A DNA stretch of 64,000 nt. Origin: Candidatus Moraniibacteriota bacterium (GTDB taxonomy: Bacteria; Patescibacteriota; Minisyncoccia; Moranbacterales; UBA1568). A program made the translations under genes and the position numbers. The DNA is taken from NCBI GenBank assembly GCA_028688415.1, contig JAQTYF010000001.1, positions 10,385 to 74,384 of the forward strand. The letters are read 5' to 3'. Of the stretch, positions 407 through 23,359 are shown in pieces (position 1 is the stretch's first letter; each line of letters starts with the position of its first letter). The notes under the pieces are model-generated. The model searched no databases. It was not told the origin of the DNA and saw only the letters and a list, made by a program, of their open reading frames with translations.

Positions 407-1129
407 ATTGTCAGAATTGCCTGAATATCGTGGTAACATGGTATAAGTAACCCGGCTTATAACGGTGAAGCCTAACATCTGCCAATCGGCTGATTATGGT
501 AATACCGTGGGAAGTCCCCTGAGAAGAATCAAAGGGTGACCCCGTAACGACTGATGCGAAAGCAGAGGCCCCCGCCTATTGCGCGGAGGCAACACGCCGG
601 CTCTTATCTAACCCAAAAGAAACATATGGATCTTGCTTCTTACATTTCCGGTTTTGTAGATGGTGAAGGATGCTTTAGTGTATCTTTTACTCTTCGCGCA
701 AAATTGAAAACAGGAATAGAAGTTCGACCGAGTTTTTCGATCGGACAGAATAAGCGCAGTTTGAAACTGTTACAAGAAATAGAACAGTTTTTCAAATGCG
801 GAAGTATACGCTTTTCATCACGTGATAATTGCTATAAGTATGAAACACGAGATATAAGTGAGCTTATGCGGAAAATTATTCCGCACTTTGAAAAATTCCC
901 TCTTCAATCAGATAAAGCGAAAGATTTCAAAATTTTTCGTGATATATGCAAAGAGATATCTACTGCAAAACATCTCAATCCAGAGCATTTGAAACAGATT
1001 ATTCATCTGGCCTATCAAATGAATGGATCGGGAAAAAGGAAATATCCAGAAGCAGAACTCCTACGTGTTCTGGATAAGATGAAGATATAGTCTAATGAAG
1101 CGTGAAAACGTGAGAAGATAATATAAATG
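407..1129 (+). mobile_element. Intervening sequence 2 in 23S rRNA (probable group I intron) carrying a LAGLIDADG homing endonuclease gene
   Basis: 23S block ...TTGTCAGGTAA ends near 406 and continues with AGTTCTGACGCGCATGAAAGGTGTAATGA at about 1130 (equivalent to GGGTAA|GTTCCGACCTGCACGAATGGCGTAATGA). The ~720-bp insert contains ORF 554..1090. Confidence 0.6.
626..1090 (+). CDS. LAGLIDADG-family homing endonuclease (intron-encoded). Likely start is the ATG at 626 (MDLASYISGFVDGEGCF...); the listed ORF begins at 554.
   Basis: N-terminal LAGLIDADG-type motif (SYISGFVDGEGCFSV) and its location inside a 23S rRNA insertion. Size about 155 aa fits single-motif LAGLIDADG enzymes. Confidence 0.75.
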   Translation: MDLASYISGFVDGEGCFSVSFTLRAKLKTGIEVRPSFSIGQNKRSLKLLQEIEQFFKCGSIRFSSRDNCYKYETRDISELMRKIIPHFEKFPLQSDKAKDFKIFRDICKEISTAKHLNPEHLKQIIHLAYQMNGSGKRKYPEAELLRVLDKMKI

Positions 1130-1414
1130 AAGTTCTGACGCGCATGAAAGGTGTAATGACTTGGAAACTGTCTCAACGAACATCCCGGTGAAATTGCAAT
1201 GACGGTAAAGATGCCGTCGACCTACAGCTAGACGAAAAGACCCCATGGAGCTTTACTATAACTTGGTATTGAATTAAAGTTTTTGTTGCCGAGCATAGGT
1301 GGGAGACTATGAAGCACCCCTTCTGGGGGGTGTGGAGTCATCACTGGAATACCACTCTGCAGAGATTTTAATTCTAACCCGCGGCCATTATCTGGTCGGG
1401 GGACAGTGCCTGGT

Positions 1415-1446
<32 letters not shown>

Positions 1447-1668
1447 GTGCAACGGAGGCGTTTACAAAGGTTCTCTAGGTCCGGATGGAAATCGGACCGA
1501 TAGCGCAAAAGCATAAGAGAGCTTTACTGAAAGACCGATCAGTCGATCAGTTACGAAAGTAGAATTTAGTGAACCGACCATTACTCGTAGGAGTGTGGAA
1601 GATCATCAGATAAAAGTTACCCTGGGGATAACAGGCTGATCTTGCCCAAGAGTCCATATCGACGGCAA

Positions 1669-1706
<38 letters not shown>

Positions 1707-1916
1707 GTGGAGAAGCTCCCAAGGGTTTGGCTGTTCGCCAATTAAAGTGGTACGTGAGCTGGGTTCAAACCGTCGTGAGACAGGTTGGTTTCCTATCTGC
1801 TGTAGGCGTGTGTTGCTTGAGAGAACTCTTTCCTAGTACGAGAGGACCGGAAAGAACGAACCTCTGGTGTATCTGCTGTTCCGCCAGGAGCATCGCAGAG
1901 TAGCTACGTTCGGGTA

Positions 1917-1949
<33 letters not shown>

Positions 1950-2261
1950 AAGCTCAAGATAAGGCAACAGTATCAGTTTACTGATACAAAATTTCCTAGA
2001 AGATTACTAGGTTGATAGGCTGCAGATGTAAGTCCCGAGAGGGATTCAGTCAAGCAGTACTAATAAATTTATTCAACTTTCTTTTTTCTAACCTTGTTTT
2101 ATTCTCGCAAGAGAGTAATATGAGTTACGGTTAGCAGTGAAGAGTGCTTGTTAAATGGGGACACAACATTATATATTAGACAGACAATTTGGAGGCCCGC
2201 CTGCAACGCTATGCGTAGCATTGCGGGCAGGGGAATTTCCCATACGTTTTTGAGAGCAGAG

Positions 2262-2376
2262 TATCCGGTGCTTCTAGCGAAGTGGAAACACCTGATCCCA
2301 TACCGAACTCAGCAGTTAAGCACTTCAGCACCGATGGTAGCCTTCAGTGGCAAGAGTAGGACAGTGCCGGGTACTC
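2262..2376 (+). rRNA. rrf: 5S rRNA
   Basis: ...CCTGATCCCATACCGAACTCAGCAGTTAAGCACTTCAGCACCGATGGTAGCC...AGAGTAGGACAGTGCCGGG matches the universal 5S core (CCGAACTCAG..GTGAAAC..GCCGATGGTAG..AGAGTAGG). It sits about 190 nt after the 23S end. Confidence 0.8.
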
Positions 2377-2430
2377 TGAACTCAAAAAATAATGTAAAAA
2401 TGGTGCAGTTTCCGCCCGAGGCGGACCAGC

Positions 2431-2482
2431 CTTGGGCTGGAAGCATCAGCACCGATGGTAGCCTTCAGTGGCAAGAGTAGGA
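2431..2482 (+). repeat. Duplicated fragment of the 5S rRNA 3' half (pseudo-5S remnant)
   Basis: AGCATCAGCACCGATGGTAGCCTTCAGTGGCAAGAGTAGGACAGTGCCGGG repeats 5S positions about 2326-2372 almost exactly, about 60 nt after the complete 5S. Confidence 0.7.
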
Positions 2483-2527
2483 CAGTGCCGGGAACATTCC
2501 TCTTCAAATCTTTCAAAAATTACAAAT

Positions 2528-2556
2528 ACAGCCTGAACAAGGTTGTTTTTTTGTTT
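2528..2556 (+). repeat. Direct repeat copy 1 (AGCCTGAACAAGGTTGTTTTTTTGTTT), a weak hairpin plus T-tract, possibly a terminator
   Basis: The same ~27-nt string recurs at 3186-3212. The two copies bracket ORF 2632..3165. Confidence 0.5.
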
Positions 2557-12569: not shown

Positions 12570-14153
12570 CTACTGTATATATTCAAACTTCTCTCGAGAA
12601 AATTGTTTTTTGAGAATCATTCTTTGTACTTTGCCTGTCGATGTCCTCGGTAATTTTTCAGGAGAGAGCGAGAGAAGGTATTTTGGTGCCTCGTATGCTC
12701 CGATGAGGGGTGTATGAGAGAGAATGTTTTTTTTGAGCTTCTTGAATGCCTGATCGGTATCGACATGTTTTTTCCAACAAATGATGGCAGCTACTTCTTC
12801 CCCGTATCGATCATCGACGACACCTATGACATAGACCTGATCGATATCTACCGATACCTTCTTTAGTCTATTTTCTACAGCAGTAGGAGAGATGTTCACG
12901 CCTCCCTTGATGATGATTTCTTTTTTCCTTCCTTTCAAAAAGAAGAACTTTTTTTTATCGATAATTTTGAAATATCCGATATCGCCCGTCAAGAAATATC
13001 CGTTTTGAAAAGCAGGTTCCTTACCTACGTATCCTCGCATAACAGCATCACCTCTTACGATCAATTCTCCCTCTTCATTTTCACCGAGATGTTCTCCTGT
13101 ATTGCTAGCAATCTGGACATCTGCCCACGGCATCGATATACCGATAGAGTTTTCTTCCACAATCTTTTTGTGGAGAGCGGAAGAGAGTGAGAGAGGGACG
13201 CCAGTCACCCGTAGCGCTGTTTCTGTCTGTCCATAACCTTGGTAAAGGGGAATATGGTATGTATCTTCGAATTCGAGGGCACTGTGCGCTATGACTGGGG
13301 CGGAACCGATCTGAATTCTATTGAGCAGGATATCGTTTTTTACGTGCATAAACTCTGATTCACGTACCAATTGATCATATACGATTGATTGAACGATTGA
13401 TGTGATGGTGGATTGTGTTTTACTTACTTGATTCCAGAAGTTTGAGCTGGAATATGTCGGAGGAATAGCAATAGATCCTCCAGAAAGGAGTATAGAGAGA
13501 CAAAATGTTGTCGAATTGATGTGATGAAGAGGAAGATTGACGAGGAAGCGATCAGTATCTCTGATATCGAACCATCGCCGAATACCATCAGCATTGACAA
13601 TCAAATTTTGTAGAGAAAGTTGCGCTCCCTTAGGATGTCCAGTCGTTCCAGAAGTAAAGAGAATGAGAGCAATGTGATCTGGATTCTTCTGTAATATTGG
13701 CAGTTCTTTCTCTGACCGATAAAGAAATCCAGAAAAGATTTCGATACGCACTCCTTCAATCGATGCCTGATCGATTGATTTTTGTATTTTTTCTTGAACG
13801 ATGAGATATTTTGATTGAGTGATGCGTATTTTGTAGGCATAGAGTTCGCCAATGTCATTTTTCGTATCGAGAGGAATGGTGATGATACCCATACTCCATG
13901 CCGACCAACTGAGTATGAGGAGATCGATCGAATTGGTAAAAGCGAGAGCAATACAATCTTTTTCTTTGAGACCAAGGGTCTGTAGATAATGGAGAGCACG
14001 CTCCATTTTTTCGAGCAGTGCTTCATACGAGAGAGTTTCGAGAAGAGACCCGTCTGATGAACAGGACATGAGGGCAATGTTGCGCGGTGATTTTTTAGCT
14101 ACTTCAGAAACGAAAAGGTAGATATTGCTGATTGGATGGAGAGGAATGTTCAT
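12570..14153 (-). CDS. AMP-dependent synthetase/ligase (acyl-CoA or acyl-ACP ligase, FAAL-like candidate starter-loading enzyme). Start taken at MNIPLHP (14153); the ORF extends to 14225.
   Basis: AMP-binding signature LFTSGTTGHPKGAQLS and adenylation-domain architecture. Divergently arranged next to the PKS-like operon. Confidence 0.8.
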   Translation of the reverse strand: MNIPLHPISNIYLFVSEVAKKSPRNIALMSCSSDGSLLETLSYEALLEKMERALHYLQTLGLKEKDCIALAFTNSIDLLILSWSAWSMGIITIPLDTKNDIGELYAYKIRITQSKYLIVQEKIQKSIDQASIEGVRIEIFSGFLYRSEKELPILQKNPDHIALILFTSGTTGHPKGAQLSLQNLIVNADGIRRWFDIRDTDRFLVNLPLHHINSTTFCLSILLSGGSIAIPPTYSSSNFWNQVSKTQSTITSIVQSIVYDQLVRESEFMHVKNDILLNRIQIGSAPVIAHSALEFEDTYHIPLYQGYGQTETALRVTGVPLSLSSALHKKIVEENSIGISMPWADVQIASNTGEHLGENEEGELIVRGDAVMRGYVGKEPAFQNGYFLTGDIGYFKIIDKKKFFFLKGRKKEIIIKGGVNISPTAVENRLKKVSVDIDQVYVIGVVDDRYGEEVAAIICWKKHVDTDQAFKKLKKNILSHTPLIGAYEAPKYLLSLSPEKLPRTSTGKVQRMILKKQFSREKFEYIQ

Positions 14154-14238
14154 ACTGAAGAAAAAAGATAGATGTGTATGAGAACAATGACATATTAAGC
14201 CTAGTATATCACAAAAAACGATCAAAGTATTTGGTGAT

Positions 14239-14264
14239 ATTTCAGTACTTTGCTATACTGAAAT
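14239..14264. promoter_or_regulatory. Inverted repeat ATTTCAGTA-N8-TACTGAAAT overlapping an extended -10 (TGCTATACT) in the divergent ligase/PKS-operon intergenic region
   Basis: 9-bp perfect arms. TATAAT also at 14265-14270. Confidence 0.35.
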
Positions 14265-14284
14265 CGTATAATTTATGAAAAAGT

Positions 14285-14662
14285 ATGAAACAAAAAATTC
14301 TTCTTGAGATTTCGACAGCGTATTTTGTTGTTCTCGCTCTTTCAGTTTCTTTTGTTCCTGAAATTTTTGGATTAGATGTCTCTGGGGATATGCTCAAAAG
14401 ATCTCTTATAGCAATTCTCTTTTTTGTAGCAGGAATTGCAACATTTTTTGTTTCAAGACGAAATGAATCATCTTCTTCAATTCACTTACTCATCTCTTTT
14501 TTTATCTTTCTTTTTACTTCTCTTTCTCTTTTTGGTCTTATAGGTATAGTGTCTGGTTATAACATTGCTCACCCGTTACTCTTTTCTGTGGACGGACTTT
14601 TTCTTGTTATTCATACATCTTTTGCTACAGCTTTTTTCTTTGTTCGTAAGCAATTGCAATAA
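14285..14662 (+). CDS. Hypothetical small integral membrane protein (125 aa)
   Basis: Three to four hydrophobic helices. First gene downstream of the divergent promoter region. Confidence 0.5.
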   Translation: MKQKILLEISTAYFVVLALSVSFVPEIFGLDVSGDMLKRSLIAILFFVAGIATFFVSRRNESSSSIHLLISFFIFLFTSLSLFGLIGIVSGYNIAHPLLFSVDGLFLVIHTSFATAFFFVRKQLQ

Positions 14663-14749
14663 TAATATTTTTCTTCTTTTTTGATACAATGACTTGATAC
14701 TCGTGTATTTATGGTACAAGACATGGTGATATAATCAGAATGATCCGAT

Positions 14750-16819
14750 ATGAAAGAGAGACCGATGTACCAACCAAATGACATCTGTATTGTGGGGAGA
14801 GGTTGTGTCTTGCCAGAAGCATCTCGTCCAGAGGAATTCTGGACAAATATCATCTCAGGTACGTGTTCTATCAGGCAGATGCCAGAGGAAAGGTTTGATA
14901 AGCGTCTTTATTTCAGTCGAGAGAGATTGGCAAAAGATAAGTCGTATTCTTCGTACGCTGGTTTCGTCGATGATGAGGACCTGAAGAAAATCAGTAAACG
15001 TCTTGGTCTCGTATTCTCTCGGAATAGGAGATTGGAGATTATGTCTCTTGAGGCCACAAGACAGGCATTCGCTTGTCTGAAGCAGAAAAGAAAAAAAATA
15101 TTAGAGAATACAACTCTCTTTATTGGCTGTATGGAAGCGAGCGATGGATTTTCGCTTGAGAATTTCTTTGCATTCAATAAAAAATTCTTGAAGCAGTATA
15201 TACAAAAAAGTAATATAAAAAGCAAGAAAAAAGCCTTTGATGCGATAGAGCAATATTTCAATCATGAAGTGGATGATGCTTTACAAATCGATGCTGTATT
15301 AACGACATCTGTTATTGATGTCTTGAAGAAAAAATTTCATTTGAAAGGGGAGGGGGTGCTTGTTGATGCGGCTTGTGCTTCATCTCTGGCAGCAATCGAG
15401 AGTGCTGTGGACGCTCTGAAGAATTATGAGACGGATATGGCCGTAACTGGAGGTATAGAAAGTAATTTACGACCCGATTCATTTGTTTTATTCAGTAAAG
15501 TCGGAGCTCTCTCTGAAAAAAGATGTCTTCCTTTTGATGAACAAACTGACGGATTGTCTCAGGGTGAAGGCGCAGTCATTTTTGTTCTTCAAAGGATGGA
15601 AGATGCTTTGCGAGATGGGAATACCATTTATGGCATCATACGATCAGTAGGAAGTGCGAGCGATGGGAATAGTTCGAGCCTCTTTTCCCCGTCTATAGAA
15701 GGGCAACTCTTGTCGTATGATCGAGCCTATCAAAGTATAGACCCACAGAGTATTGATTATATAGAGTGTCATGGTACGGGTACGAAACTTGGAGATAAGA
15801 CAGAAATCAATTCCCTAAACGCTTTTTTCAAAAAGAAAATACCTATTGGATCAGTGAAATCTCTTGTCGGTCATACCAAAGGATCTGCTGGAGCTGTTGG
15901 TCTTCTCAAATGTTTATTATTGATGGAACAAAAGATTATTCCACCTACTCGATACATTACATCATCGATGGCTCCTCAGAATGGAAATGTGTATGTAAAC
16001 AAAAGACCTCTTTCTTTACGTAAAAAATCTAAACATAAGGCCTTGCGTTGTGGAGTGTCTGCTTTTGGATTTGGTAATATCAACTATCATGTTGTTGTTG
16101 AAGAATGGAAAAAGGAAGGAAAAATAAAGTCTCAATTGATGTTGCAGGAACCAGAAACAATAGTGGTTATAGGGGAGGGAATTGCCGTATACAAAGATAT
16201 CGATTCGGATGTATTGGTCAGACAATTCAATATTCCTCCAAAGAGTATTGCCTCTATAGATAAAATTCAATTACTCGCGCTTTCTGCTGTACAGGATGCT
16301 TTCGAAAAATCTCATATAGCTATTGATTCACTCAAGAAAGAATCGGTTTCTGTTCTCTCTGCTTCTATCATCGGTTTGGAGTCTGCTCTTCATTTCTCTT
16401 ACCGTATTATAACGGCTGAGTTTGAGAAAGTATTCGATCCATCCGATGAAAATATGAAAAAGATGTTTGCAAAGTATAAAGACAGATTCCCTGAAGTCAC
16501 TGAGGATACTGGTCCAGGTATTTTAAACAACGTGATCGCAGGAAGAATATGTAACACTTTCGATTTCAAGGGAAAAAATTTCAATGTTGATGCTGATTTC
16601 AATTCTTTTGCATCAGCACTCAAGCTTGCCAAGAGGGAACTTCAGAAAAATGATGGAATAGTAATACTTGTTTTTTGTCGAGAGAAACTTGATACGGAGA
16701 GAAAATATATACTAAGAAAAGACGAGGTGTCATGTCTTTTATTGACGACGCTTCGTCGGGCAAAAGAAGAAAGCTATCCGATCCAAAAATTGATACAATC
16801 AATCCGATATGATGAATAA
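14750..16819 (+). CDS. Beta-ketoacyl synthase (type I PKS/PUFA-synthase-like KS) followed by a truncated, cysteine-less second KS-like N-terminal fragment (CLF-like)
   Basis: KS N-terminus ICIVGRGCVLPEASRPEEFW, active-site Cys in VDAACASSLAAIESA, catalytic His motifs ECHGTGTKLGD and VGHTKGSAGAVG. The C-terminal ~230 aa repeat the KS N-half pattern (IVVIGEGIAV..., GPGILNNVIAGRICNTFDFKGKNFNVDADFNSFASALKLA) with Cys replaced (DADFNS) and no His-His half. Confidence 0.85.
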   Translation: MKERPMYQPNDICIVGRGCVLPEASRPEEFWTNIISGTCSIRQMPEERFDKRLYFSRERLAKDKSYSSYAGFVDDEDLKKISKRLGLVFSRNRRLEIMSLEATRQAFACLKQKRKKILENTTLFIGCMEASDGFSLENFFAFNKKFLKQYIQKSNIKSKKKAFDAIEQYFNHEVDDALQIDAVLTTSVIDVLKKKFHLKGEGVLVDAACASSLAAIESAVDALKNYETDMAVTGGIESNLRPDSFVLFSKVGALSEKRCLPFDEQTDGLSQGEGAVIFVLQRMEDALRDGNTIYGIIRSVGSASDGNSSSLFSPSIEGQLLSYDRAYQSIDPQSIDYIECHGTGTKLGDKTEINSLNAFFKKKIPIGSVKSLVGHTKGSAGAVGLLKCLLLMEQKIIPPTRYITSSMAPQNGNVYVNKRPLSLRKKSKHKALRCGVSAFGFGNINYHVVVEEWKKEGKIKSQLMLQEPETIVVIGEGIAVYKDIDSDVLVRQFNIPPKSIASIDKIQLLALSAVQDAFEKSHIAIDSLKKESVSVLSASIIGLESALHFSYRIITAEFEKVFDPSDENMKKMFAKYKDRFPEVTEDTGPGILNNVIAGRICNTFDFKGKNFNVDADFNSFASALKLAKRELQKNDGIVILVFCREKLDTERKYILRKDEVSCLLLTTLRRAKEESYPIQKLIQSIRYDE

Positions 16820-19800
16820 AAGTCAGGGGTATTATTACGGTACATATACTGTTTCGATGAAGCCATACTCCGGAGTGGATTTTTCGAGACGATGTTTTAT
16901 TTTTGCTGGTCAAGGATCTACTTTTCCAGGTATGTTTCGTGATGAATATCTCAAATCAATCCTTATCCGTGAGAAGTTCGCGCTTGCAGATAGATTGATG
17001 AGACGATTTCATTTACCCAAGATTTCGGACTATATTATGCATCCCGAGAATTTACAGGAAAAGACATTACCAGTAGTATCCAATATTGCTTTGTTTACAT
17101 TAGAAATGGCTCTTTTTGATATGTTACGAGCATCTCAAATCATTCCAGAAAAAGTAACGGGGCATAGTTTTGGCGAATACTCAGCCCTCGTGGCTTCGGG
17201 TGTCGTATCTTTTGAGGAGATGCTTATGATTATTTATCACCGAGATATCTTTTGTCCGAAAGCGCATACGGCAGGCTTCTTGATAGCAGTGAATGCAGAT
17301 GTACGATACATCAAGGCTGTTTTGAAACATCAAAAATATTTCATTAGCAATATCAATAGTCCGAATCAGACGGTTATTGCCGTCGTTCCTGAATGCGTCG
17401 ATGAAATTGTGGATATTTTTCGAGAAAATGAAACGAAATGCAAAGTTCTGTACGGCGTACCACAGCCATATCATTCCCCGTATCTTCTGAGTTCACAGAA
17501 GAAAATTGAGGCATTTCTTCGGAAGAAGCAATTTACTTTTCGAAAACCGACTATACCATTTTTTTCTTCGGTATTGAAAAAGGAAATCAATCAGCAAAAT
17601 TTTCGAAAAAGTGATATTGAGAAGATTCTCTGCACCCAGATTACAACTCAAGTGAACTTTATCTATCAGGTACGATCAATGTATAATTTAGGATGTTTTT
17701 CTTTTTTGGAAATCGGTCCGAAAAAAATATTCTCTGTCTTTGTCGAAGATATTTTGGCAGAGAAAAAACAGTCAGTAAAAACAGAATGTATACAATCTTT
17801 TTTTCAAAAAGAACAGAAAGCGAATACGGCAGGAAAAAATGTGAAAAATGCAAAATTATTCACAATTATATGTAAAACTATTAGAGAGATAACGGGATAT
17901 GAGATAAAAAGTATTCATCCCAATGGAAGATTCCAGGAAGATTTTGGGATAGATTCTATCAAGAGAACGGACATTCTTCTGACTATTTTTCGGAGATTAA
18001 AAATATCTCTCGGTGATGATTTTAATACGTCTCATTTCAAGAGTATTGATGATGTTATCTTATACATTGAAACAATACAAAAAAAATCTTTGTCATCGAT
18101 ACAAGATACCGAGACAAAGAAGGTGCATAAAAAAAGAAAAACAGAATTCCAAAGATATGCTTTTCTTCCAGTAACAGAAGAGCTTTCTATTGCTTCTTCT
18201 CAATGTTCGAGAGACGATCGAGCTAACCTGTTTGTTTTAGACATCGAGAATATTTTTGAATCTGATAGTGTTGTTTTGAAACGATGGTTTTCTTTCGTAA
18301 GGAGGGTAGTTGATAAAAATCAGACATTTACTCTCGTGATACGAGCACAAGATATACAGTGGGAGTATAAAAAAATGTTGTCCCTCTTTCAATTCTTCCG
18401 AGGTTTTTTACAGCCAATCAAACAGAGTACATTTTGTTGTTTGTGCCTTTCATTTGGATCGGAACAGAGTATTGCCGTTTCCAGTCTTGCATCTTTCCTG
18501 AAATCTCTCAAAAGAGAATTTTCAGGAATGTTCTTTCGATATGTTCATAGTGATGCAGTGAAAGATTTTAAGGAGTTTCTTCCCGAGAAAGAGGGAATGA
18601 ATGGAGATGACATTGTATATACACGAGGGAAGAGATATCGCATGCAACCAGTTTTGATACAAAATAATCCAATTATCCCTTTCAAAAAAGATGCTGTCAT
18701 AATAGTGATCGGAGGAGCGAGCGGAATTACTTTTTCTCTCATAAAGCATATCGCAAAAGAGGAAAAGCCGATTTTCTACGTGATCGGTCGTAGGAATGAA
18801 CAAGAAAAGATCATACGCGAACATATACGTATACTCAAAAAATATACGCCACATGTTTTTTATGTTTCATTGGACGCTCGTGACAAAGTTGCTCTGGAGA
18901 AGGTGTGGAAACGTGTTATGCGAGAACAGAAACGAATTGATTATGTAATCAATGGTGCAGGTACAGTCGATATTGATTTTTTTGACCAGAAAACAGAGCT
19001 TTCAATAGAGTCCGAATTTTGTAATAAAGTGGTACCGACATTGAATGTTTTGCAATTGGCTCTGAAATATCATCCAAAAAGAGTTATCAATTTTGCATCA
19101 ATCATCTCGCGGTATGGGAGTGCTGGTCAAAGTATCTATACCGCAGCCAATGCATGGGTGAGTGAGATGACTCAGAAATACGGTAAAGAATTAGAGAAAT
19201 ATGGTTCGGTGGCAACGGCTATTCATTGGCCAGCTTGGGAGAATACGGGTATGACAGCAGAAAAAAGCGTTTCTCAGAAATTGGATGAATACGAAGTGTC
19301 ATTGCTTGATCCAGATGATGCGAATCGATTGTTTGCCCTTGATCTCTCATTGCAGAAGAGTGGACCAGTCTATTATTTGGATGCATCGGATGATAGCGCC
19401 TTATCCTTTCCTTCTAATAATTTCATAAAATACGCACCGATTCTTGGCTCACCCTCTGACTTGTCTTCACTGACTTTTTCTCAGAATATTTTCAGGAAAA
19501 GTTTTCATACGACGAGCGATAAGTGGCTCAGAGATCATAAAATACAGGGAGCAATGTATGTTCCTTTGGCAATTGGCATAGGAATGTTTCTGTGTTTGGG
19601 AAAAATGTATTGGAAGAAAGTTCCTCTATTGAAAAATATTTCTGCACAGAATCCTCTTATAGTAAGAAAGGCTGTGGTGGAATGTACACTCGAACGGAAG
19701 AATGTTGATAATAAGAATACTCTTTCTTTGAAATCAGATGTATCTTATTTTTCCGCCGAAGAAATCAAGGAGGAAAAAGAAGAACAAAAGTTATTTTGTA

Positions 19801-20252
19801 TAATCAAAAAAAATGGTACAAAAATATCAAAAAAGGATATTTACGATTTCTTTGAAAAAGAAACAAGAATATCATTTGGACCCACCTTTCAGACATTGCA
19901 GGCAGTGTGGAAAAATGAAGACGGTTCTTCTTGTGCTGTCATTGATACTGCCAAGCTTCTTCCGATATTTGGAATAGAAACTTTCGACAGACTGATTCAG
20001 TGGATCGATGCTTCTTTTCAGATGCTCGGGCTACAATCTGCGGATCAACAAAGAACTTTTGTGCTTCCGATTAGTATTGATTGGATGAAATATTATGAAG
20101 AGATCGAAAAAACACGCTTTGTATACCCGGTACTTTTGTCTTTTACTCCTACCGAAACAGGTGTGCGTGGTGATGTCTCTGTCGTAAACGAAAAAGGAGA
20201 AGTTATCCTTGAAATGAAGGGCATTTTTCTTCGCAAAGGAAGTTTTTCTTGA
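16809..20252 (+). CDS. Multidomain PKS-like protein: acyltransferase, ACP, ketoreductase and dehydratase (AT-ACP-KR-DH)
   Basis: AT motifs FAGQGSTFPGM and GHSFGEYSA (GHSxG). ACP with DFGIDSIKRTDIL (DSL-type Ser). KR Rossmann IVIGGASGITFS and YTAANAW. DH motif LRDHKIQGAMYVPLA (HxxxGxxxxP). Overlaps the KS gene by 11 nt. Confidence 0.85.
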   Translation: MMNKSQGYYYGTYTVSMKPYSGVDFSRRCFIFAGQGSTFPGMFRDEYLKSILIREKFALADRLMRRFHLPKISDYIMHPENLQEKTLPVVSNIALFTLEMALFDMLRASQIIPEKVTGHSFGEYSALVASGVVSFEEMLMIIYHRDIFCPKAHTAGFLIAVNADVRYIKAVLKHQKYFISNINSPNQTVIAVVPECVDEIVDIFRENETKCKVLYGVPQPYHSPYLLSSQKKIEAFLRKKQFTFRKPTIPFFSSVLKKEINQQNFRKSDIEKILCTQITTQVNFIYQVRSMYNLGCFSFLEIGPKKIFSVFVEDILAEKKQSVKTECIQSFFQKEQKANTAGKNVKNAKLFTIICKTIREITGYEIKSIHPNGRFQEDFGIDSIKRTDILLTIFRRLKISLGDDFNTSHFKSIDDVILYIETIQKKSLSSIQDTETKKVHKKRKTEFQRYAFLPVTEELSIASSQCSRDDRANLFVLDIENIFESDSVVLKRWFSFVRRVVDKNQTFTLVIRAQDIQWEYKKMLSLFQFFRGFLQPIKQSTFCCLCLSFGSEQSIAVSSLASFLKSLKREFSGMFFRYVHSDAVKDFKEFLPEKEGMNGDDIVYTRGKRYRMQPVLIQNNPIIPFKKDAVIIVIGGASGITFSLIKHIAKEEKPIFYVIGRRNEQEKIIREHIRILKKYTPHVFYVSLDARDKVALEKVWKRVMREQKRIDYVINGAGTVDIDFFDQKTELSIESEFCNKVVPTLNVLQLALKYHPKRVINFASIISRYGSAGQSIYTAANAWVSEMTQKYGKELEKYGSVATAIHWPAWENTGMTAEKSVSQKLDEYEVSLLDPDDANRLFALDLSLQKSGPVYYLDASDDSALSFPSNNFIKYAPILGSPSDLSSLTFSQNIFRKSFHTTSDKWLRDHKIQGAMYVPLAIGIGMFLCLGKMYWKKVPLLKNISAQNPLIVRKAVVECTLERKNVDNKNTLSLKSDVSYFSAEEIKEEKEEQKLFCIIKKNGTKISKKDIYDFFEKETRISFGPTFQTLQAVWKNEDGSSCAVIDTAKLLPIFGIETFDRLIQWIDASFQMLGLQSADQQRTFVLPISIDWMKYYEEIEKTRFVYPVLLSFTPTETGVRGDVSVVNEKGEVILEMKGIFLRKGSFS

Positions 20253-20884
20253 AAAAAGATATGAGAAACCTCTTTTCATCACGAGGAAATATGAATCTAC
20301 TGCGTTGTCTCGCTCAGCCAACGAGAATATTTCGTCATCAGGGATGGGATATAGAGAAGCAACGTTCGATAGCTGATTTTTTGGTATACATTCTTTCGGG
20401 AGAAGAACTCAAGCATTCGGAGACCGGAAGACCGATAATCAACGACTTCACCGATGTGTCGATTTCACATAAACCGCACTATATCGTTGTCGCTACGATC
20501 CAGTCTCCGTATAAGATTGGAATTGATATTGAATACCTCTTGACGGATATACAAACAGTGTTCTTTATCGGTCCAGTAATCAAAAAGAACGAACAGTTTG
20601 TACTGGATTGTTTCTGCAGAGAAAATAACCTTTCCTATTCTTCTGGAGTAATCGCTTTTTGGTCTCTCAAAGAATCTTTCTTCAAATGTCTTGATGTTGA
20701 TATGAAACCTGCTCAGATTTTTGTATCGCGGATTTATAATGAGAAAGTATTTTTTTCTTTTTCAAACTCTATCAAAGAATGTATGAAGGAAAGAAAAATA
20801 CAGTTTGAATATGCTACAATAGAAATTCGAGGGGAATATGTCCTGACACAGACGATTATGTGTGAGATGAAAAAATATGAATAA
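20249..20884 (+). CDS. 4'-phosphopantetheinyl transferase (Sfp/EntD type)
   Basis: PPTase motifs IGIDIEYL (GxDxE) and WSLKESFFKCL (WxxKEa..K). 4-nt overlap with the upstream gene. Confidence 0.75.
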   Translation: MKKDMRNLFSSRGNMNLLRCLAQPTRIFRHQGWDIEKQRSIADFLVYILSGEELKHSETGRPIINDFTDVSISHKPHYIVVATIQSPYKIGIDIEYLLTDIQTVFFIGPVIKKNEQFVLDCFCRENNLSYSSGVIAFWSLKESFFKCLDVDMKPAQIFVSRIYNEKVFFSFSNSIKECMKERKIQFEYATIEIRGEYVLTQTIMCEMKKYE

Positions 20885-21905
20885 AAATATGCCGTCACAA
20901 TATCGTTGGCAAACACTCGATATTATCAAAACTATCGGATGTCTTGGAGCTATTTTTAGCCATATATTGATATGGCAATTTGGCACCACTCATCGTGGTG
21001 TAGGTATAGATCTGTATGATATGAATGCTGTTTCTTGGCCGATACTTACTTTTTGTTTCGTGATAGTGCACATTCTCTTTCTTTCAGCAGGAGCGTCTTT
21101 TTATTTTTATATTGAGAAATATCACCCTTCAATGCGTCAAGTTGGTACTCGATTGATACCTATTATCCTTCTGGGATTTCTTTTTGGTCTCAATTATCAC
21201 CCGTTTATTCTGTATTGGAATGTTTTTTTCTTTTATACTCTTTCTATCCTCACTCTTTTTTTCTTACAGCGTTTTTTCGGATATACGATTATTTTTCTTG
21301 TCACTTCACTGACGCTTTTTCTCACACCATTGCTCCGCATGTTTTTCGATGATGGATTTTTGGAAAATTATTTTATCACCTTTTTCTTTACTGATGCACA
21401 GAATACTATCAATTTCTATCCATTTTTCCCGTTCTTTTCTCTGATCGGATTTGGATTTCTCACGAGTCATATCTATTACACGTATCAGAAAAAGAAGTTA
21501 TTCATACGAAGCCTCGCCTCCGGGACGTTGGCATTATTCTTCCTCACCCTAATCCTAGAACGAGTGGATGTCTCTGATATCTTTGGCGTAACAGCCCATC
21601 TCCCTATACGTTTTCTTCTCCTAACCATTGCTTTTTTTGTTGTAATTCTCTCTCTCATCGAGCTGATTGCTCATGGCAGAATGATAACGAAAAAATACCA
21701 CCCATTGGTGATTATCGGACGACATATTCTCCCCGTGTATGTCTTGACCCTTTTGAGCTCACTAGTTTTCTTGAATTTTTTCCAACGACTGAGTTTTTAT
21801 AACAAAGAGAGTATAGGAGTTTTTCTTTTTTCTCTTTTCATAACATTTGATATTGCGTATGCGATAGCGGTGATACTCACATATCGGAACAGGCAGAATG
21901 CCTAG
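20877..21905 (+). CDS. Polytopic membrane protein, probable acyltransferase-3 (OafA/OatA-like) family
   Basis: About 10 TM helices. N-terminal R-x3-LD-x2-K-x-I-G-x3-A-x4-H pattern (RWQTLDIIKTIGCLGAIFSHI) typical of AT3-family membrane O-acyltransferases. Overlaps the PPTase stop. Confidence 0.45.
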   Translation: MNKNMPSQYRWQTLDIIKTIGCLGAIFSHILIWQFGTTHRGVGIDLYDMNAVSWPILTFCFVIVHILFLSAGASFYFYIEKYHPSMRQVGTRLIPIILLGFLFGLNYHPFILYWNVFFFYTLSILTLFFLQRFFGYTIIFLVTSLTLFLTPLLRMFFDDGFLENYFITFFFTDAQNTINFYPFFPFFSLIGFGFLTSHIYYTYQKKKLFIRSLASGTLALFFLTLILERVDVSDIFGVTAHLPIRFLLLTIAFFVVILSLIELIAHGRMITKKYHPLVIIGRHILPVYVLTLLSSLVFLNFFQRLSFYNKESIGVFLFSLFITFDIAYAIAVILTYRNRQNA

Positions 21906-21960
21906 TGCACATTTTCTTTGTTTGGTATATACTATACATGTATTCGTAACAGCAATCTTT

Positions 21961-23013
21961 ATGAAAAAAAGTTTCTTTGCCATTTTCTTTGTATTGGTTT
22001 TTGCAGTAAGCATAGGTATGCCTCAGCCAGTGCATGCTGGTGGTGTCGTCGATGCAATCGTGGATGCGGTGACGAATGTTGTTGCGATAGCCGCTGGTGT
22101 CGTACAGGGCTCATTGTCACTTATTAGTGGGGGGAGTTTCTCTGATGGATATGCTCAGGGATTCTGCAGTGTATCGAGTAATGGGAATGGGATATTCAGT
22201 CCTGGAGGGTGTCAGAATGCGGGAGGGCAAATTGTTTCGTCTACAGGAGTTCCATGTGTAGCGAATTACAATGTTGCATGTATTGCCACTAATGCTTGTG
22301 GAACAACTAATAGCGGTACATATGATTGTGTAGGTACGTGTACTGCTGTCGCCCCACCAATGCCCCCTAATCAAGGAGCTTCTTGTGATTCTGCTCAAAA
22401 TAATTGTGGATCGAAAAATGTAGGCACTATGAACTGTGGAGTATGTTCTGCTGTTGCTCCTGCTGATGCGTGGTTTTATCCTGGAGTTGCTTGTCTCTCC
22501 GCTCCGAACCAATGTGGTATGCAAAATGCCAATGGAACGTATAATTGCTTGGGACAATGTGCTGGGTCAACCTCTCCTTCACCAGCTCTCTGCTCCTCAT
22601 ACAATACCAATAAACCAACAGTATCACTGACAGCAAATCCGCTCGTACGTACATCGGCAGGATCGACCACTCTCACATGGACCGTAGGCAATGCAACGAG
22701 TTGTCGTCATTCAAGTAGTGATACCTCTATCTGGTCTGATGCACCAATAACCCCCGCTAACGATTCAGCTAACGTCTCTGTTACAGCTCCTACTACCTCT
22801 TTCACCATCTCCTGTTCGAATGCCTCAGGAGTAACCAACAGAACGGTATATGTCAAAGTTCAGAATGATTGTTCTCCTCTCGATTGTGGAGGCACAGCAA
22901 AATCTGATCAAGTGTGTGTAGGGAAACGATACAATGACATAAAAGGTTGTGGCGTGAATAACTGTACCGGTACCCGTTATTGTGACTTCAATTGGAAAGA
23001 GACGGCGTTGTAA
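21961..23013 (+). CDS. Secreted cysteine-rich repeat protein (signal peptide, then three or more CG..N.GTY.C.G.C.AVAP modules and an S/T-rich C-terminal domain). Start taken at MKKSFF (21961).
   Basis: Signal-peptide-like MKKSFFAIFFVLVFAVSIGMPQPVHA. Repeats CGTTNSGTYDCVGTCTAVAP / CGSKNVGTMNCGVCSAVAP / CGMQNANGTYNCLGQCAGS. Confidence 0.55.
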   Translation: MKKSFFAIFFVLVFAVSIGMPQPVHAGGVVDAIVDAVTNVVAIAAGVVQGSLSLISGGSFSDGYAQGFCSVSSNGNGIFSPGGCQNAGGQIVSSTGVPCVANYNVACIATNACGTTNSGTYDCVGTCTAVAPPMPPNQGASCDSAQNNCGSKNVGTMNCGVCSAVAPADAWFYPGVACLSAPNQCGMQNANGTYNCLGQCAGSTSPSPALCSSYNTNKPTVSLTANPLVRTSAGSTTLTWTVGNATSCRHSSSDTSIWSDAPITPANDSANVSVTAPTTSFTISCSNASGVTNRTVYVKVQNDCSPLDCGGTAKSDQVCVGKRYNDIKGCGVNNCTGTRYCDFNWKETAL

Positions 23014-23029
23014 GAAATAAACAAGAGAC

Positions 23030-23359
23030 ATGTCAGAAAAGATAGTACAAATAATGATAATGATTTTATTGTTAAGTATCACGCTCTTTGTCATGACACT
23101 TGTTTTTGTTGTTCTAATGAGACCGACGACAATGATTGAAACAGTCTCTCCTTTGCCTGTTTCTGATCTGCCTATGATACAGATTTCTCCAGAAATCGAT
23201 CAGCAGACGTCTCCGAATCCAGCATTGTATTCTGATGATGCAGATTTACGAATCATTGACGAGCAGGTGCGACGAGGAGTATTGACACCTGAAGAGGCGA
23301 AACAACGATTACAGGAAATTGTCAAGCAAAAAAGTAATACCGTTTCCACAACGCCATAG
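23030..23359 (+). CDS. Hypothetical small membrane-anchored protein
   Basis: N-terminal TM helix (IMIMILLLSITLFVMTLVFVVLM). 109 aa. Confidence 0.45.
   Translation: MSEKIVQIMIMILLLSITLFVMTLVFVVLMRPTTMIETVSPLPVSDLPMIQISPEIDQQTSPNPALYSDDADLRIIDEQVRRGVLTPEEAKQRLQEIVKQKSNTVSTTP

What the first reader, a model, noticed from the sequence alone, without database searches (positions are those of the whole stretch)
20877..23013. Membrane AT3-like acyltransferase and secreted Cys-rich repeat protein translationally coupled to the PKS/PPTase genes
ORF 20877..21905 (about 10 TM helices; RWQTLDIIKTIGCLGAIFSHI resembles the AT3/OafA N-terminal R..LD..R/K...H motif) overlaps the PPTase stop. It is followed by a signal-peptide protein with three CG-x-N-x-GTY-x-C-x-G-x-C-x-AVAP repeats and an S/T-rich tail. 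Inference: the acyl chain made by the PKS-like enzymes may be transferred across the membrane onto a glycan or onto this exported protein. The Cys-rich modules could be disulfide-knotted adhesin or binding repeats.
Basis: inference. Interest (0 to 1): 0.5.

Follow-up and report, generated by a model that had tools for sequence, protein, structure and literature searches.

The report
PKS-linked membrane acyltransferase with secreted partner
In a tiny uncultured (Moranbacteria) bacterium, a very divergent membrane acyl-transfer enzyme sits directly after a polyketide synthase and directly before a secreted protein whose first ~60 residues are conserved wherever this enzyme occurs, which suggests, but does not prove, that the exported protein (or a surface sugar) receives a custom-made acyl chain.

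Summary

The secreted gene really starts at 21961, not 21898, so a 55-nt spacer separates it from the acyltransferase. It has three Cys-rich repeats. The "S/T tail" is an Ig-like domain plus a Cys-rich C-terminal module.

I found nine lineages of the close clade. Six place the acyltransferase after a KS | AT-ACP-KR-DH | PPTase set. Two place it after an overlapping short-chain acyl-CoA-ligase-like gene. Six have, immediately downstream, a secreted protein sharing only a signal peptide and a ~60-aa N-terminal module; the Cys repeats are dispensable.

Best reading: the enzyme moves an acyl thioester across the membrane. The N-terminal module is the leading acceptor candidate and a glycan is the main rival. 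Nothing about the transfer itself has been tested.

The parts
20877..21905 (+). Divergent TmAT-superfamily (AT3/HGSNAT-like) 10-TM membrane acyltransferase, 342 aa. Candidate catalytic or donor-binding residues are D15, K18, H29, F68/G72, R92, G193 and Y288.
   Evidence: ORF. Fold. Relatives and Pfam. Topology. Signature residues compared with PMC12423673 and PMC7448272.
21961..23013 (+). Secreted protein, 350 aa (PHH40_00100).
21961..22038 (+). Sec-type signal peptide (MKK, then a hydrophobic core, then VHA|GG). The invariant A26-G27 would make Gly27 the mature N-terminus.
   Evidence: Read from the sequence and from alignments A2/A3. No signal-peptide predictor was available.
22039..22215 (+). 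Conserved N-terminal module (GGVVDAIVDAV...VVQGSLSLISGGSFSDGYAQGFC...C). This is the only part of the secreted protein that co-occurs with the acyltransferase. It is the proposed acceptor or docking module.
22273..22584 (+). Three Cys-rich repeats of about 30-36 aa with 4 Cys each.
   Evidence: A paralogue (P0010) and L014 carry them without the N-module.
22609..22866 (+). Ig-like beta domain (PTVSLTANP...TLTWT...C...FTISCSN...VYVKV).
   Evidence: Weak matches to repeated modules in P0011/P0012. Beta strands appear in the low-confidence model.
22870..23013 (+). Cys-rich C-terminal module ending in GTRYCDFNWKE. Otherwise different secreted proteins share it.
20249..20884 (+). 4'-phosphopantetheinyl transferase. 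GIDIE and WSLKES motifs are present. Its stop overlaps the acyltransferase start.
16809..20252 (+). PKS subunit AT-ACP-KR-DH. GHSFG, GIDS, the YTAAN Tyr and HxxxGxxxxP are all present.
14750..16819 (+). PKS ketosynthase subunit with an intact C209/H341/H375 triad, plus a degenerate second KS-like piece at its C-terminus.
14285..14662 (+). Small 4-TM-like membrane protein at the head of the + strand gene row. A gene of similar size and position occurs in L001, but no sequence similarity was detected.
12570..14225 (-). Divergently oriented AMP-forming acyl ligase, long-chain fatty-acid-CoA-ligase-like. It is 63-70% identical to the ligases next to the same genes in L001 and L014.
23030..23359 (+). 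109-aa protein with an N-terminal TM helix and a weak SHOCT-like C-terminus. A counterpart lies directly after the secreted protein in L014 (44% identical) and, by position, size and the same weak SHOCT-like Pfam match, in L001.

Best explanation
ORF 20877..21905 encodes a highly divergent member of the transmembrane acyltransferase (TmAT) superfamily, which includes AT3/OafA, HGSNAT and GWT1. It is nearest to the HGSNAT_cat/DUF1624 branch.

How such enzymes work (known for the superfamily). They form a pore. The pantetheine arm of an acyl thioester enters the pore from the cytoplasm, and the acyl group is handed to an acceptor on the outer face.

What the gene layout shows (shown here). The gene is translationally coupled to a split iterative PKS with PPTase. 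The gene order KS | AT-ACP-KR-DH | PPTase matches the domain order of the enediyne PKS. No ER or thioesterase is present, so the expected product is a hydroxy/polyene-type acyl-S-pantetheine.

Proposed mechanism (inferred).
- The enzyme off-loads this chain, or a CoA ester of it made with the neighbouring acyl ligase, to the outside of the membrane.
- The most likely acceptor is the ~60-aa N-terminal module of the Sec-exported protein encoded 55 nt downstream.
- Candidate nucleophiles in that module are the invariant new N-terminal Gly27, the conserved Ser/Thr51, Tyr64 and Cys84.
- Acylation would lipidate or anchor a variable surface protein.
For: Identity.
- In Foldseek, only HGSNAT entries stand out, with TM 0.53-0.61 against about 0.2 for all others.
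- The profile of 8 homologues matches an archaeal protein that passes the PF07786 cut-off (43.8 bits against a 22-bit threshold), with hhalign probability 99.5%.
- Of 55 relatives, 40 hit PF07786 (best 4e-17), 18 hit PF01757 (best 4.5e-9), and no other family is hit.
- Signature residues sit in the right helices of the model. D15xxK18 and K18-x10-H29 are in TMH1, G72 in TMH2, R92 in TMH3, G193 in TMH6 and Y288 in the kinked TMH9.

Linkage to acyl activation.
- PPTase, and where the contig reaches far enough the PKS, lie directly upstream in the window, L001/L002, L008=L018, L009, L010 and L011.
- An overlapping acetate/propionate-CoA-ligase-like gene lies upstream in L006 and L007.
- The PKS catalytic motifs are intact.

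Linkage to the N-module.
- The module lies immediately downstream in 6 of 9 lineages, although the rest of the secreted protein differs.
- It also occurs as a stand-alone 94-aa secreted protein beside the same ligase and SHOCT-like genes.

Precedents within the superfamily. TraX is required for acetylation of a protein, F-pilin. GWT1 uses a C16 acyl-CoA donor. The AT3 enzyme that acylates an ansamitocin precursor accepts several different acyl donors.
Against: - No biochemical data exist, and the window protein itself is below every Pfam and NCBIfam threshold.
- Almost all characterised TmAT acceptors are carbohydrates.
- No TmAT enzyme is known to take its acyl group from an ACP rather than from CoA.
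- Three of nine lineages (L003-5, L007, L011) have no N-module gene in the sequence held, and L011 does have the PKS.
- More distant clade members (about 31% identity) sit alone.
- No strictly invariant Ser/Thr/Lys marks an acceptor site in the module.
- Gene adjacency in small CPR genomes may reflect shared envelope function rather than an enzyme-substrate pair.
- No model of the secreted protein could be obtained.
Confidence: 0.4

Rival explanations
1. The protein is the same TmAT acyltransferase, but its acceptor is a cell-envelope glycan or glycolipid (peptidoglycan, a teichoic-acid-like polymer, or the glycan of a glycoprotein). This is what nearly all known AT3/HGSNAT enzymes do. The neighbouring secreted protein would be co-regulated envelope cargo, or would bind the modified polymer.
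For: Characterised superfamily members overwhelmingly acylate sugars. L011 has the PKS, PPTase and acyltransferase without an N-module gene nearby, and L003-5 and L007 also lack one. In two lineages the donor-side partner is an acetate/propionate-CoA-ligase-like enzyme, which fits ordinary short-chain O-acylation.
Against: No glycosyltransferase, SGNH/esterase-like partner or polysaccharide genes were seen beside the gene in any of the loci. The N-module is strikingly conserved directly downstream while the rest of that protein varies.
Confidence: 0.33
2. The membrane protein is the release or export step of the PKS. In place of a thioesterase, it would move the chain to water, to a lipid head group or to a membrane lipid precursor. 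The result would be a free or lipid-bound polyene or hydroxy-fatty acid for an organism that probably cannot make ordinary fatty acids.
Against: The same clade also occurs with a short-chain acyl-CoA-ligase-like partner and no PKS. This reading does not explain the conserved N-module.
Confidence: 0.15
3. There is no functional link. The acyltransferase-like protein, the PKS and the secreted protein are neighbours by descent in a small, syntenic genome region, and the membrane protein may not be catalytically active.
For: The window protein is below all curated family thresholds. The close homologues all appear to come from Patescibacteria-type organisms; those with an organism name are Moranbacteria or Parcubacteria.
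Against: The association survives rearrangement and partner swaps (PKS against ligase; fused against stand-alone N-module) at 37-58% identity. The genes overlap in several lineages. The superfamily's functional residues, including His29, are conserved across 55 relatives.
Confidence: 0.08

Closest known systems
HGSNAT / HGSNAT_cat (PF07786, formerly DUF1624; TCDB 9.B.169)
   Different: The window protein scores only 9.3 bits against a 22-bit cut-off. It has no luminal domain or extra helix. It is 14% identical. Its conserved His (H29) sits within TMH1 at K-x10-H, which is the AT3 pattern. Its gene context is a PKS and a secreted protein rather than glycan catabolism.
AT3 O-acyltransferases (Acyl_transf_3 PF01757; OafA/OafB, Oac, OatA)
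   Same: It shows a full-length but weak alignment to the profile (residues 13-331 against profile positions 3-325). It has the R/K-x10-H motif in TMH1 and an S/A-G motif in TMH2. The inferred mechanism is transmembrane transfer of an acyl group from a cytoplasmic thioester.
   Different: It scores 10.4 bits against a 31-bit cut-off. Only the first Arg of the TMH3 RxxR motif is present (R92-L-I-P). There is no fused SGNH domain. The implied donor is not simply acetyl-CoA.
GWT1/PIGW inositol acyltransferase
   Different: [quoted passage not shown] The window protein has both.
TraX (F-pilin N-terminal acetylation)
   Same: TraX is a TmAT-clan member whose substrate is a protein, F-pilin. That F-pilin is acetylated at its N-terminus after leader cleavage is my recollection, not taken from the papers read. 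TraX often has Lys in place of the TMH1 Arg, as here. This would parallel acylation of the new N-terminal Gly27 of the N-module.
   Different: TraX lacks the bent TMH9 and TMH10. No Pfam TraX hit was obtained. TraX transfers acetyl, and its partner pilin is unrelated to the N-module.
Dlt system (DltA ligase, DltC carrier protein, DltB membrane acyltransferase); recalled from general knowledge
   Same: The logic is the same: an adenylate-forming ligase, a phosphopantetheinylated carrier domain and a polytopic membrane acyltransferase that takes the acyl group from the pantetheine arm to the outside.
   Different: DltB is an MBOAT, a fold unrelated to TmAT. Its cargo is D-alanine and its acceptor is teichoic acid.
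Enediyne polyketide synthase PKSE
   Same: The order of catalytic units is identical: KS, AT, ACP, KR, DH, PPTase (PMC9992847). There is no ER, so a polyene-type chain is expected.
   Different: Here the units are split into three overlapping genes. The KS subunit carries an extra degenerate KS-like piece. No enediyne thioesterase or cassette genes are nearby. The best NCBIfam similarity is to PfaA-type PUFA synthases. No phylogeny was made.

Membership tests
TmAT superfamily (Pfam clan CL0316; AT3/HGSNAT/GWT1) | Core 10-TMH fold with a kinked TMH9 | tested here: met
TmAT superfamily (Pfam clan CL0316; AT3/HGSNAT/GWT1) | TMH1 D-x-x-R motif at the cytosolic end (Arg is replaced by Lys in the Cas1_AcylT and TraX families) | tested here: met
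   D15-I-I-K18 lies in helix 8-35. D15 is invariant in 8 homologues, and K18 is >=90% conserved in 55.
TmAT superfamily (Pfam clan CL0316; AT3/HGSNAT/GWT1) | TMH2 F-x4-G motif | tested here: inconclusive
   G72 (with A71) is >=90% conserved. The Phe is F68, which is spaced x3 rather than x4, and the wider family has Pro at that position. No residue-level superposition was available.
TmAT superfamily (Pfam clan CL0316; AT3/HGSNAT/GWT1) | TMH3 Arg, TMH6 Gly and TMH9 Tyr lining the acyl-CoA site | tested here: met
   R92 lies in helix 86-104. G193, invariant in 55 sequences, lies in helix 183-203. Y288, >=90% conserved, lies in kinked helix 276-303. The assignment rests on helix position and conservation, not on a structural alignment.
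Acyl_transf_3 (PF01757) | Score at or above the Pfam gathering threshold (31 bits) | tested here: not met
   The score is 10.4 bits, E=0.33, although the alignment is full-length. Seven of 8 close homologues give sub-threshold hits, best 1.5e-4.
Acyl_transf_3 (PF01757) | R/K-x10-H in TMH1, with the essential His | tested here: met
   K18-x10-H29 is present, and H29 is invariant in 55 relatives.
Acyl_transf_3 (PF01757) | R-x-x-R motif in TMH3 or loop 2-3 | tested here: not met
   Only the first Arg is present (T-R92-L-I-P).
HGSNAT_cat (PF07786) | Score at or above the Pfam gathering threshold (22 bits) | tested here: not met
   The window protein scores 9.3 bits, E=1. Relatives do pass: the L013 protein scores 43.8 bits, and 40 of 55 relatives hit at E<=1e-3. 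Membership is therefore transitive only.
Enediyne-type PKS (PKSE) | Domain order KS-AT-ACP-KR-DH-PPTase | tested here: met
   Pfam domains and motifs appear in this order across genes 14750..20884 (order taken from PMC9992847).
Enediyne-type PKS (PKSE) | A single polypeptide accompanied by the enediyne thioesterase and cassette genes | tested here: not met
   There are three separate genes. No thioesterase or other enediyne cassette domain was found in the flanking ORFs by Pfam.
Protein-acylating TmAT (TraX-like function) | The acyl group ends up on a protein acceptor | not testable with these tools
   Only genomic association is available: the N-module gene lies directly downstream in 6 of 9 lineages.

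The most novel reading that the evidence does not exclude
Some CPR (Moranbacteria/Parcubacteria) bacteria may have a dedicated protein-lipidation pathway. A split PKSE-like synthase, or in some lineages a simple acyl-CoA ligase, would make an acyl thioester. A TmAT-fold enzyme would pass it through the membrane. The chain would be attached to a portable ~60-aa N-terminal acceptor module, exposed by signal-peptide cleavage, on otherwise variable surface proteins. This would be an anchoring or activation route independent of the classical Lgt/Lsp/Lnt lipoprotein pathway. It would also be the first TmAT enzyme fed by a PKS carrier protein.
Probability: 0.2. Interest if true: 0.85.

Novelty: new variant of a known kind. 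Interest (0 to 1): 0.58.

Why it matters
- CPR bacteria are tiny, uncultured and thought to depend on hosts, and how they build and decorate their surface is poorly understood.
- This region offers a conserved three-part unit: an acyl-activating machinery, a transmembrane acyltransferase and a portable secreted module. It is a concrete, testable candidate for a new surface-modification route.
- It extends the recently unified TmAT superfamily to a clade that curated profiles miss.
- It links that superfamily to a polyketide synthase, raising the question of whether a TmAT pore can accept an ACP-borne pantetheine arm.
- It points to a possible second protein acceptor for the superfamily, after F-pilin.
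- If the acceptor proves to be a glycan, the finding reduces to a divergent but ordinary O-acyltransferase in an unusual operon.

Tried and rejected
- **Direct family assignment.** Pfam and NCBIfam scans of the window protein gave nothing at normal thresholds.
- **PDB sequence search.** Profiles of 8 and of 55 sequences against PDB sequences gave no hit, even at E<=10.
- **AlphaFold database search.** The afdb50 Foldseek library was unavailable.
- **Metagenome scan with the acyltransferase profile.** It found nothing. The second scan, with the N-module, gave only L017 (=L014), L018 (=L008 extended) and a spurious match in a 5225-aa protein.
- **Search of 5.8 billion proteins with the N-module profile.** It returned a single hit, P0014, so the distribution of the module could not be measured.
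- **Structure prediction of the secreted protein.** It failed with pLDDT 34 and pTM 0.26, so no fold could be assigned to the repeats or the N-module.
- **Promoter and terminator scans over 12-25.5 kb.** Counts were at chance level, so operon boundaries are not defined.
- **Common ligase partner.** I considered whether the two kinds of upstream AMP-ligase are orthologous. They are not: BLAST found no match at 1e-3 between the window/L001/L014 type and the L006/L007 type.
- **Shared downstream partner in loci without the N-module.** The convergent downstream genes of L007 and L020 are unrelated.
Full report
**Origin and layout.** The window comes from a Candidatus Moranbacteria metagenome-assembled genome. 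ORF 20877..21905 is PHH40_00095, and the next gene is PHH40_00100.

The region holds the following genes:
- an AMP-forming acyl ligase on the minus strand, 12570..14225;
- a small membrane protein, 14285..14662;
- a ketosynthase subunit, 14750..16819;
- an AT-ACP-KR-DH subunit, 16809..20252;
- a PPTase, 20249..20884;
- the membrane ORF, 20877..21905;
- a secreted protein ending at 23013;
- a 109-aa protein with a TM helix and a SHOCT-like end, 23030..23359;
- a 213-aa protein, and then a class I (Trp/Tyr-type) tRNA synthetase.

The PKS looks catalytically competent. It has the KS triad C209/H341/H375, AT GHSFG, ACP GIDS, a KR Tyr, DH HxxxGxxxxP and the PPTase motifs. The unit order KS, AT, ACP, KR, DH, PPTase is that of the enediyne PKSE (PMC9992847). 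Here the units are split into three overlapping genes, and no ER or thioesterase lies nearby.

**Checking the observation.** The 342-aa ORF and its 8-nt overlap with the PPTase stop are real. An AlphaFold2 model built on 8 homologues (pLDDT 78, pTM 0.81) shows ten transmembrane helices. The charge distribution fits an N-in/C-in topology.

The second gene needs correction. The longest ORF starts at 21898, but all homologues and the NCBI call start at Met22, which is 21961. In one homologue an in-frame stop precedes that Met. A 55-nt spacer therefore separates the two genes.

The three Cys-rich repeats are real, and a homologue carries up to eight of them. The supposed S/T-rich tail is an Ig-like domain followed by a Cys-rich C-terminal module ending in CDFNWKE.

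**What the membrane protein is.** Curated profiles do not recognise it. Acyl_transf_3 gives E=0.33 (10.4 bits, but aligned end to end), HGSNAT_cat gives E=1, and NCBIfam gives nothing. Three independent lines nevertheless place it in the transmembrane acyltransferase (TmAT) superfamily.

- **Fold.**
  - Foldseek singles out HGSNAT alone.
- **Transitive sequence similarity.**
  - An exhaustive HMM search of 1.84 billion representatives found 118 relatives.
  - Of 55 aligned relatives, 40 hit HGSNAT_cat (best 4e-17), 18 hit Acyl_transf_3 (best 4.5e-9), and no other family appears.
  - The 8-sequence profile matches a Woesearchaeota protein that passes the PF07786 cut-off, at hhalign probability 99.5%.
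- **Signature residues** (definitions from PMC12423673 and PMC7448272).
  - D15-x-x-K18 lies in TMH1. Lys replaces Arg here, as it does in the Cas1 and TraX families.
  - The AT3 motif K18-x10-H29 is present, and H29 is invariant in all 55 relatives.
  - G72 lies in TMH2, R92 in TMH3, G193 in TMH6 and Y288 in the kinked TMH9.
  - The TMH2 Phe is offset by one residue, and the second Arg of RxxR is missing.

The correct label is therefore a divergent TmAT-superfamily member nearest to HGSNAT_cat/DUF1624. It is not a PF01757 member in the strict sense.

**Genomic association.** I recovered nine lineages of the close clade, at 37-58% identity.
- PPTase, and where the contig reaches far enough the same two PKS subunits, lie directly upstream in the window, L001/L002, L008=L018, L009, L010 and L011. 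The genes often overlap.
- In L011, acetyl-CoA carboxylase and biotin ligase genes sit divergently next to the PKS.
- In L006 and L007 the upstream gene overlaps the acyltransferase. It is an acetate/propionate-CoA-ligase-like enzyme, unrelated by BLAST to the long-chain-ligase-like gene of the window.
- In L003-5 the gene stands alone.
- More distant members, at about 31% identity, show no such context.

**The secreted partner.** In six of the nine lineages (window, L001/L002, L006, L008/18, L009, L010) the next gene encodes a secreted protein. These proteins share a signal peptide ending in A-x-A|G and a ~60-aa module. Its consensus is G-G-v-v-D-A-v, then 0-2 extra DAVG-like units, then N-v-v-a-I-a-S-G-v-v-Q-G-[ST]-l-N-L-i-T-G-G-S-F-s-D-G-Y-k-Q-G-F-C-x14-C.

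Beyond this module the proteins diverge. The window, L001 and L008 have Cys-rich repeats, while L006, L009 and L010 have quite different bodies.

In L014 the module is a separate 94-aa secreted protein. It is followed by a Cys-repeat protein with its own N-terminus, then the SHOCT-like gene and the same type of acyl ligase. An RNase J gene lies next to this set, as in the window.

A paralogue elsewhere in the window's genome (P0010) has the repeats, the Ig-like domain and the CDFNWKE end but no module.

So the N-terminal module, not the Cys-rich repeats, is what travels with the acyltransferase. L011 and L003-5 lack the module. They instead have a related small 2-TM gene lying convergently just downstream.

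**Mechanism.**
- *Shown:* the fold, the conserved donor-site residues, the topology, the intact PKS and PPTase, and the recurrent gene linkage.
- *Established for the superfamily:* the pantetheine arm of an acyl-CoA enters a pore from the cytoplasm, and the acyl group is transferred to an acceptor on the far side. GWT1 handles C16 chains, and TraX is needed to acetylate a protein, F-pilin.
- *Inferred:* the enzyme takes the PKS-made chain, either from the ACP pantetheine or as a CoA ester, and transfers it outside the membrane.

The acceptor is open. I favour the N-module, with the invariant new N-terminal Gly27, Ser/Thr51, Tyr64 and Cys84 as candidate nucleophiles. The reason is its tight, rearrangement-resistant association with the acyltransferase gene. 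A glycan or glycolipid acceptor is nearly as likely, given the family's record and the loci that lack the module. A thioesterase-substitute or lipid-forming role comes third, and mere neighbourhood last.

**Comparison and novelty.**
- It works like an AT3/HGSNAT/GWT1 enzyme and belongs to that superfamily.
- It fails the curated thresholds of both PF01757 and PF07786 and lacks RxxR.
- It resembles the Dlt logic of ligase, carrier and membrane acyltransferase, but with an unrelated fold.
- Searches of the literature held here found no description of a TmAT enzyme coupled to a PKS, or of this N-terminal module. These searches were limited.
- I rate it a new variant of a known kind. A moderate chance remains that it marks a new protein-lipidation route in CPR bacteria.

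**Limits.**
- Most contigs are short.
- The distribution of the N-module could not be measured.
- The secreted protein could not be modelled.
- The residue mapping for TMH2, 3, 6 and 9 rests on helix position and conservation, not on a structural superposition.
- No experiment exists.

Noticed in passing
window 16157..16819 (C-terminal ~220 aa of the KS protein): After the intact KS domain there is a degenerate second KS-like (chain-length-factor-like) piece, NVIAGRICNTFDFKGKNFNVDADFNSF, in which the active-site Cys is replaced by Phe. The L001 orthologue shows a second PF00109 hit.
   Followed up: partly
window 14750..20884: The three overlapping genes KS | AT-ACP-KR-DH | PPTase reproduce the domain order of the single-chain enediyne PKS (PKSE). 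There is no ER and no thioesterase nearby. The best NCBIfam similarity is to PfaA-type PUFA synthases. A PKS of this type in a CPR genome is unusual in itself.
   Followed up: partly
window 14001..22000: G+C is 0.36-0.38 across the PKS, PPTase and acyltransferase block, against 0.42-0.45 on both sides. The secreted-protein gene has the higher value. This may reflect amino-acid composition or a separate origin of the block.
   Followed up: no
L011 11112..11357 (-) and L003 1756..1947 (-): A small 2-TM protein (63-81 aa, 50% identical between the two loci) lies convergently just downstream of the acyltransferase. It appears in two of the three lineages that lack the N-module gene (L011 and L003-5) and may be an alternative partner.
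   Followed up: partly
L014 352..636 and 721..2553: Here the N-terminal module is a stand-alone 94-aa secreted protein (P0014). A separate 610-aa protein with its own N-terminal hydrophobic segment, the Cys repeats, an Ig-like domain and the CDFNWKE end follows it. The genes lie next to an RNase J C-terminus, the SHOCT-like gene and the acyl ligase, as in the window but in a different order.
   Followed up: partly
window 22870..23013; also the C-termini of P0010, P0013 and the L001/L014 proteins: A Cys-rich C-terminal module (C..dC....vC.G..Y.D..GCG.nNC.GTRYCDfNWKE[VT]AP) ends otherwise unrelated secreted proteins. It might be a sorting or attachment signal. No Pfam or NCBIfam model matches it.
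   Followed up: no
window 23030..23359; L001 13383..13685; L014 2588..2899: A ~100-aa protein with an N-terminal TM helix and a weak SHOCT-like C-terminus (LTPEEAK.RLQEI) follows the secreted protein in the window and has a counterpart in the same position in L001 and L014. BLAST detects the L014 copy (44% identity) but not the L001 copy, which is matched only by position, size and the same weak Pfam hit.
   Followed up: partly
L013 7852..10821 (Woesearchaeota archaeon): The nearest bona fide PF07786 relative (28% identical) follows an S-adenosylmethionine decarboxylase gene and a spermidine synthase fused to a membrane domain. This hints at a polyamine-related role in that archaeal lineage.
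   Followed up: no
L011 66..3779 (-): Acetyl-CoA carboxylase genes (carboxyltransferase, and biotin carboxylase with BCCP) and a biotin ligase gene lie divergently next to the PKS. They would supply malonyl-CoA in a lineage expected to lack fatty-acid synthesis.
   Followed up: no
L020 5007..11035: A more distant clade member (about 31% identical) stands alone, divergent from a type IV pilus operon with T2SSE, T2SSF and N_methyl pilin genes. This is curious given that TraX, of the same superfamily, modifies a pilin.
   Followed up: no
window 21906..21933 (+): A sigma-70-like hexamer pair (TGCACA-16-TATACT) sits in the 55-nt spacer just before the 21961 start. The overall count of such sites in the region is at chance level.
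   Followed up: no
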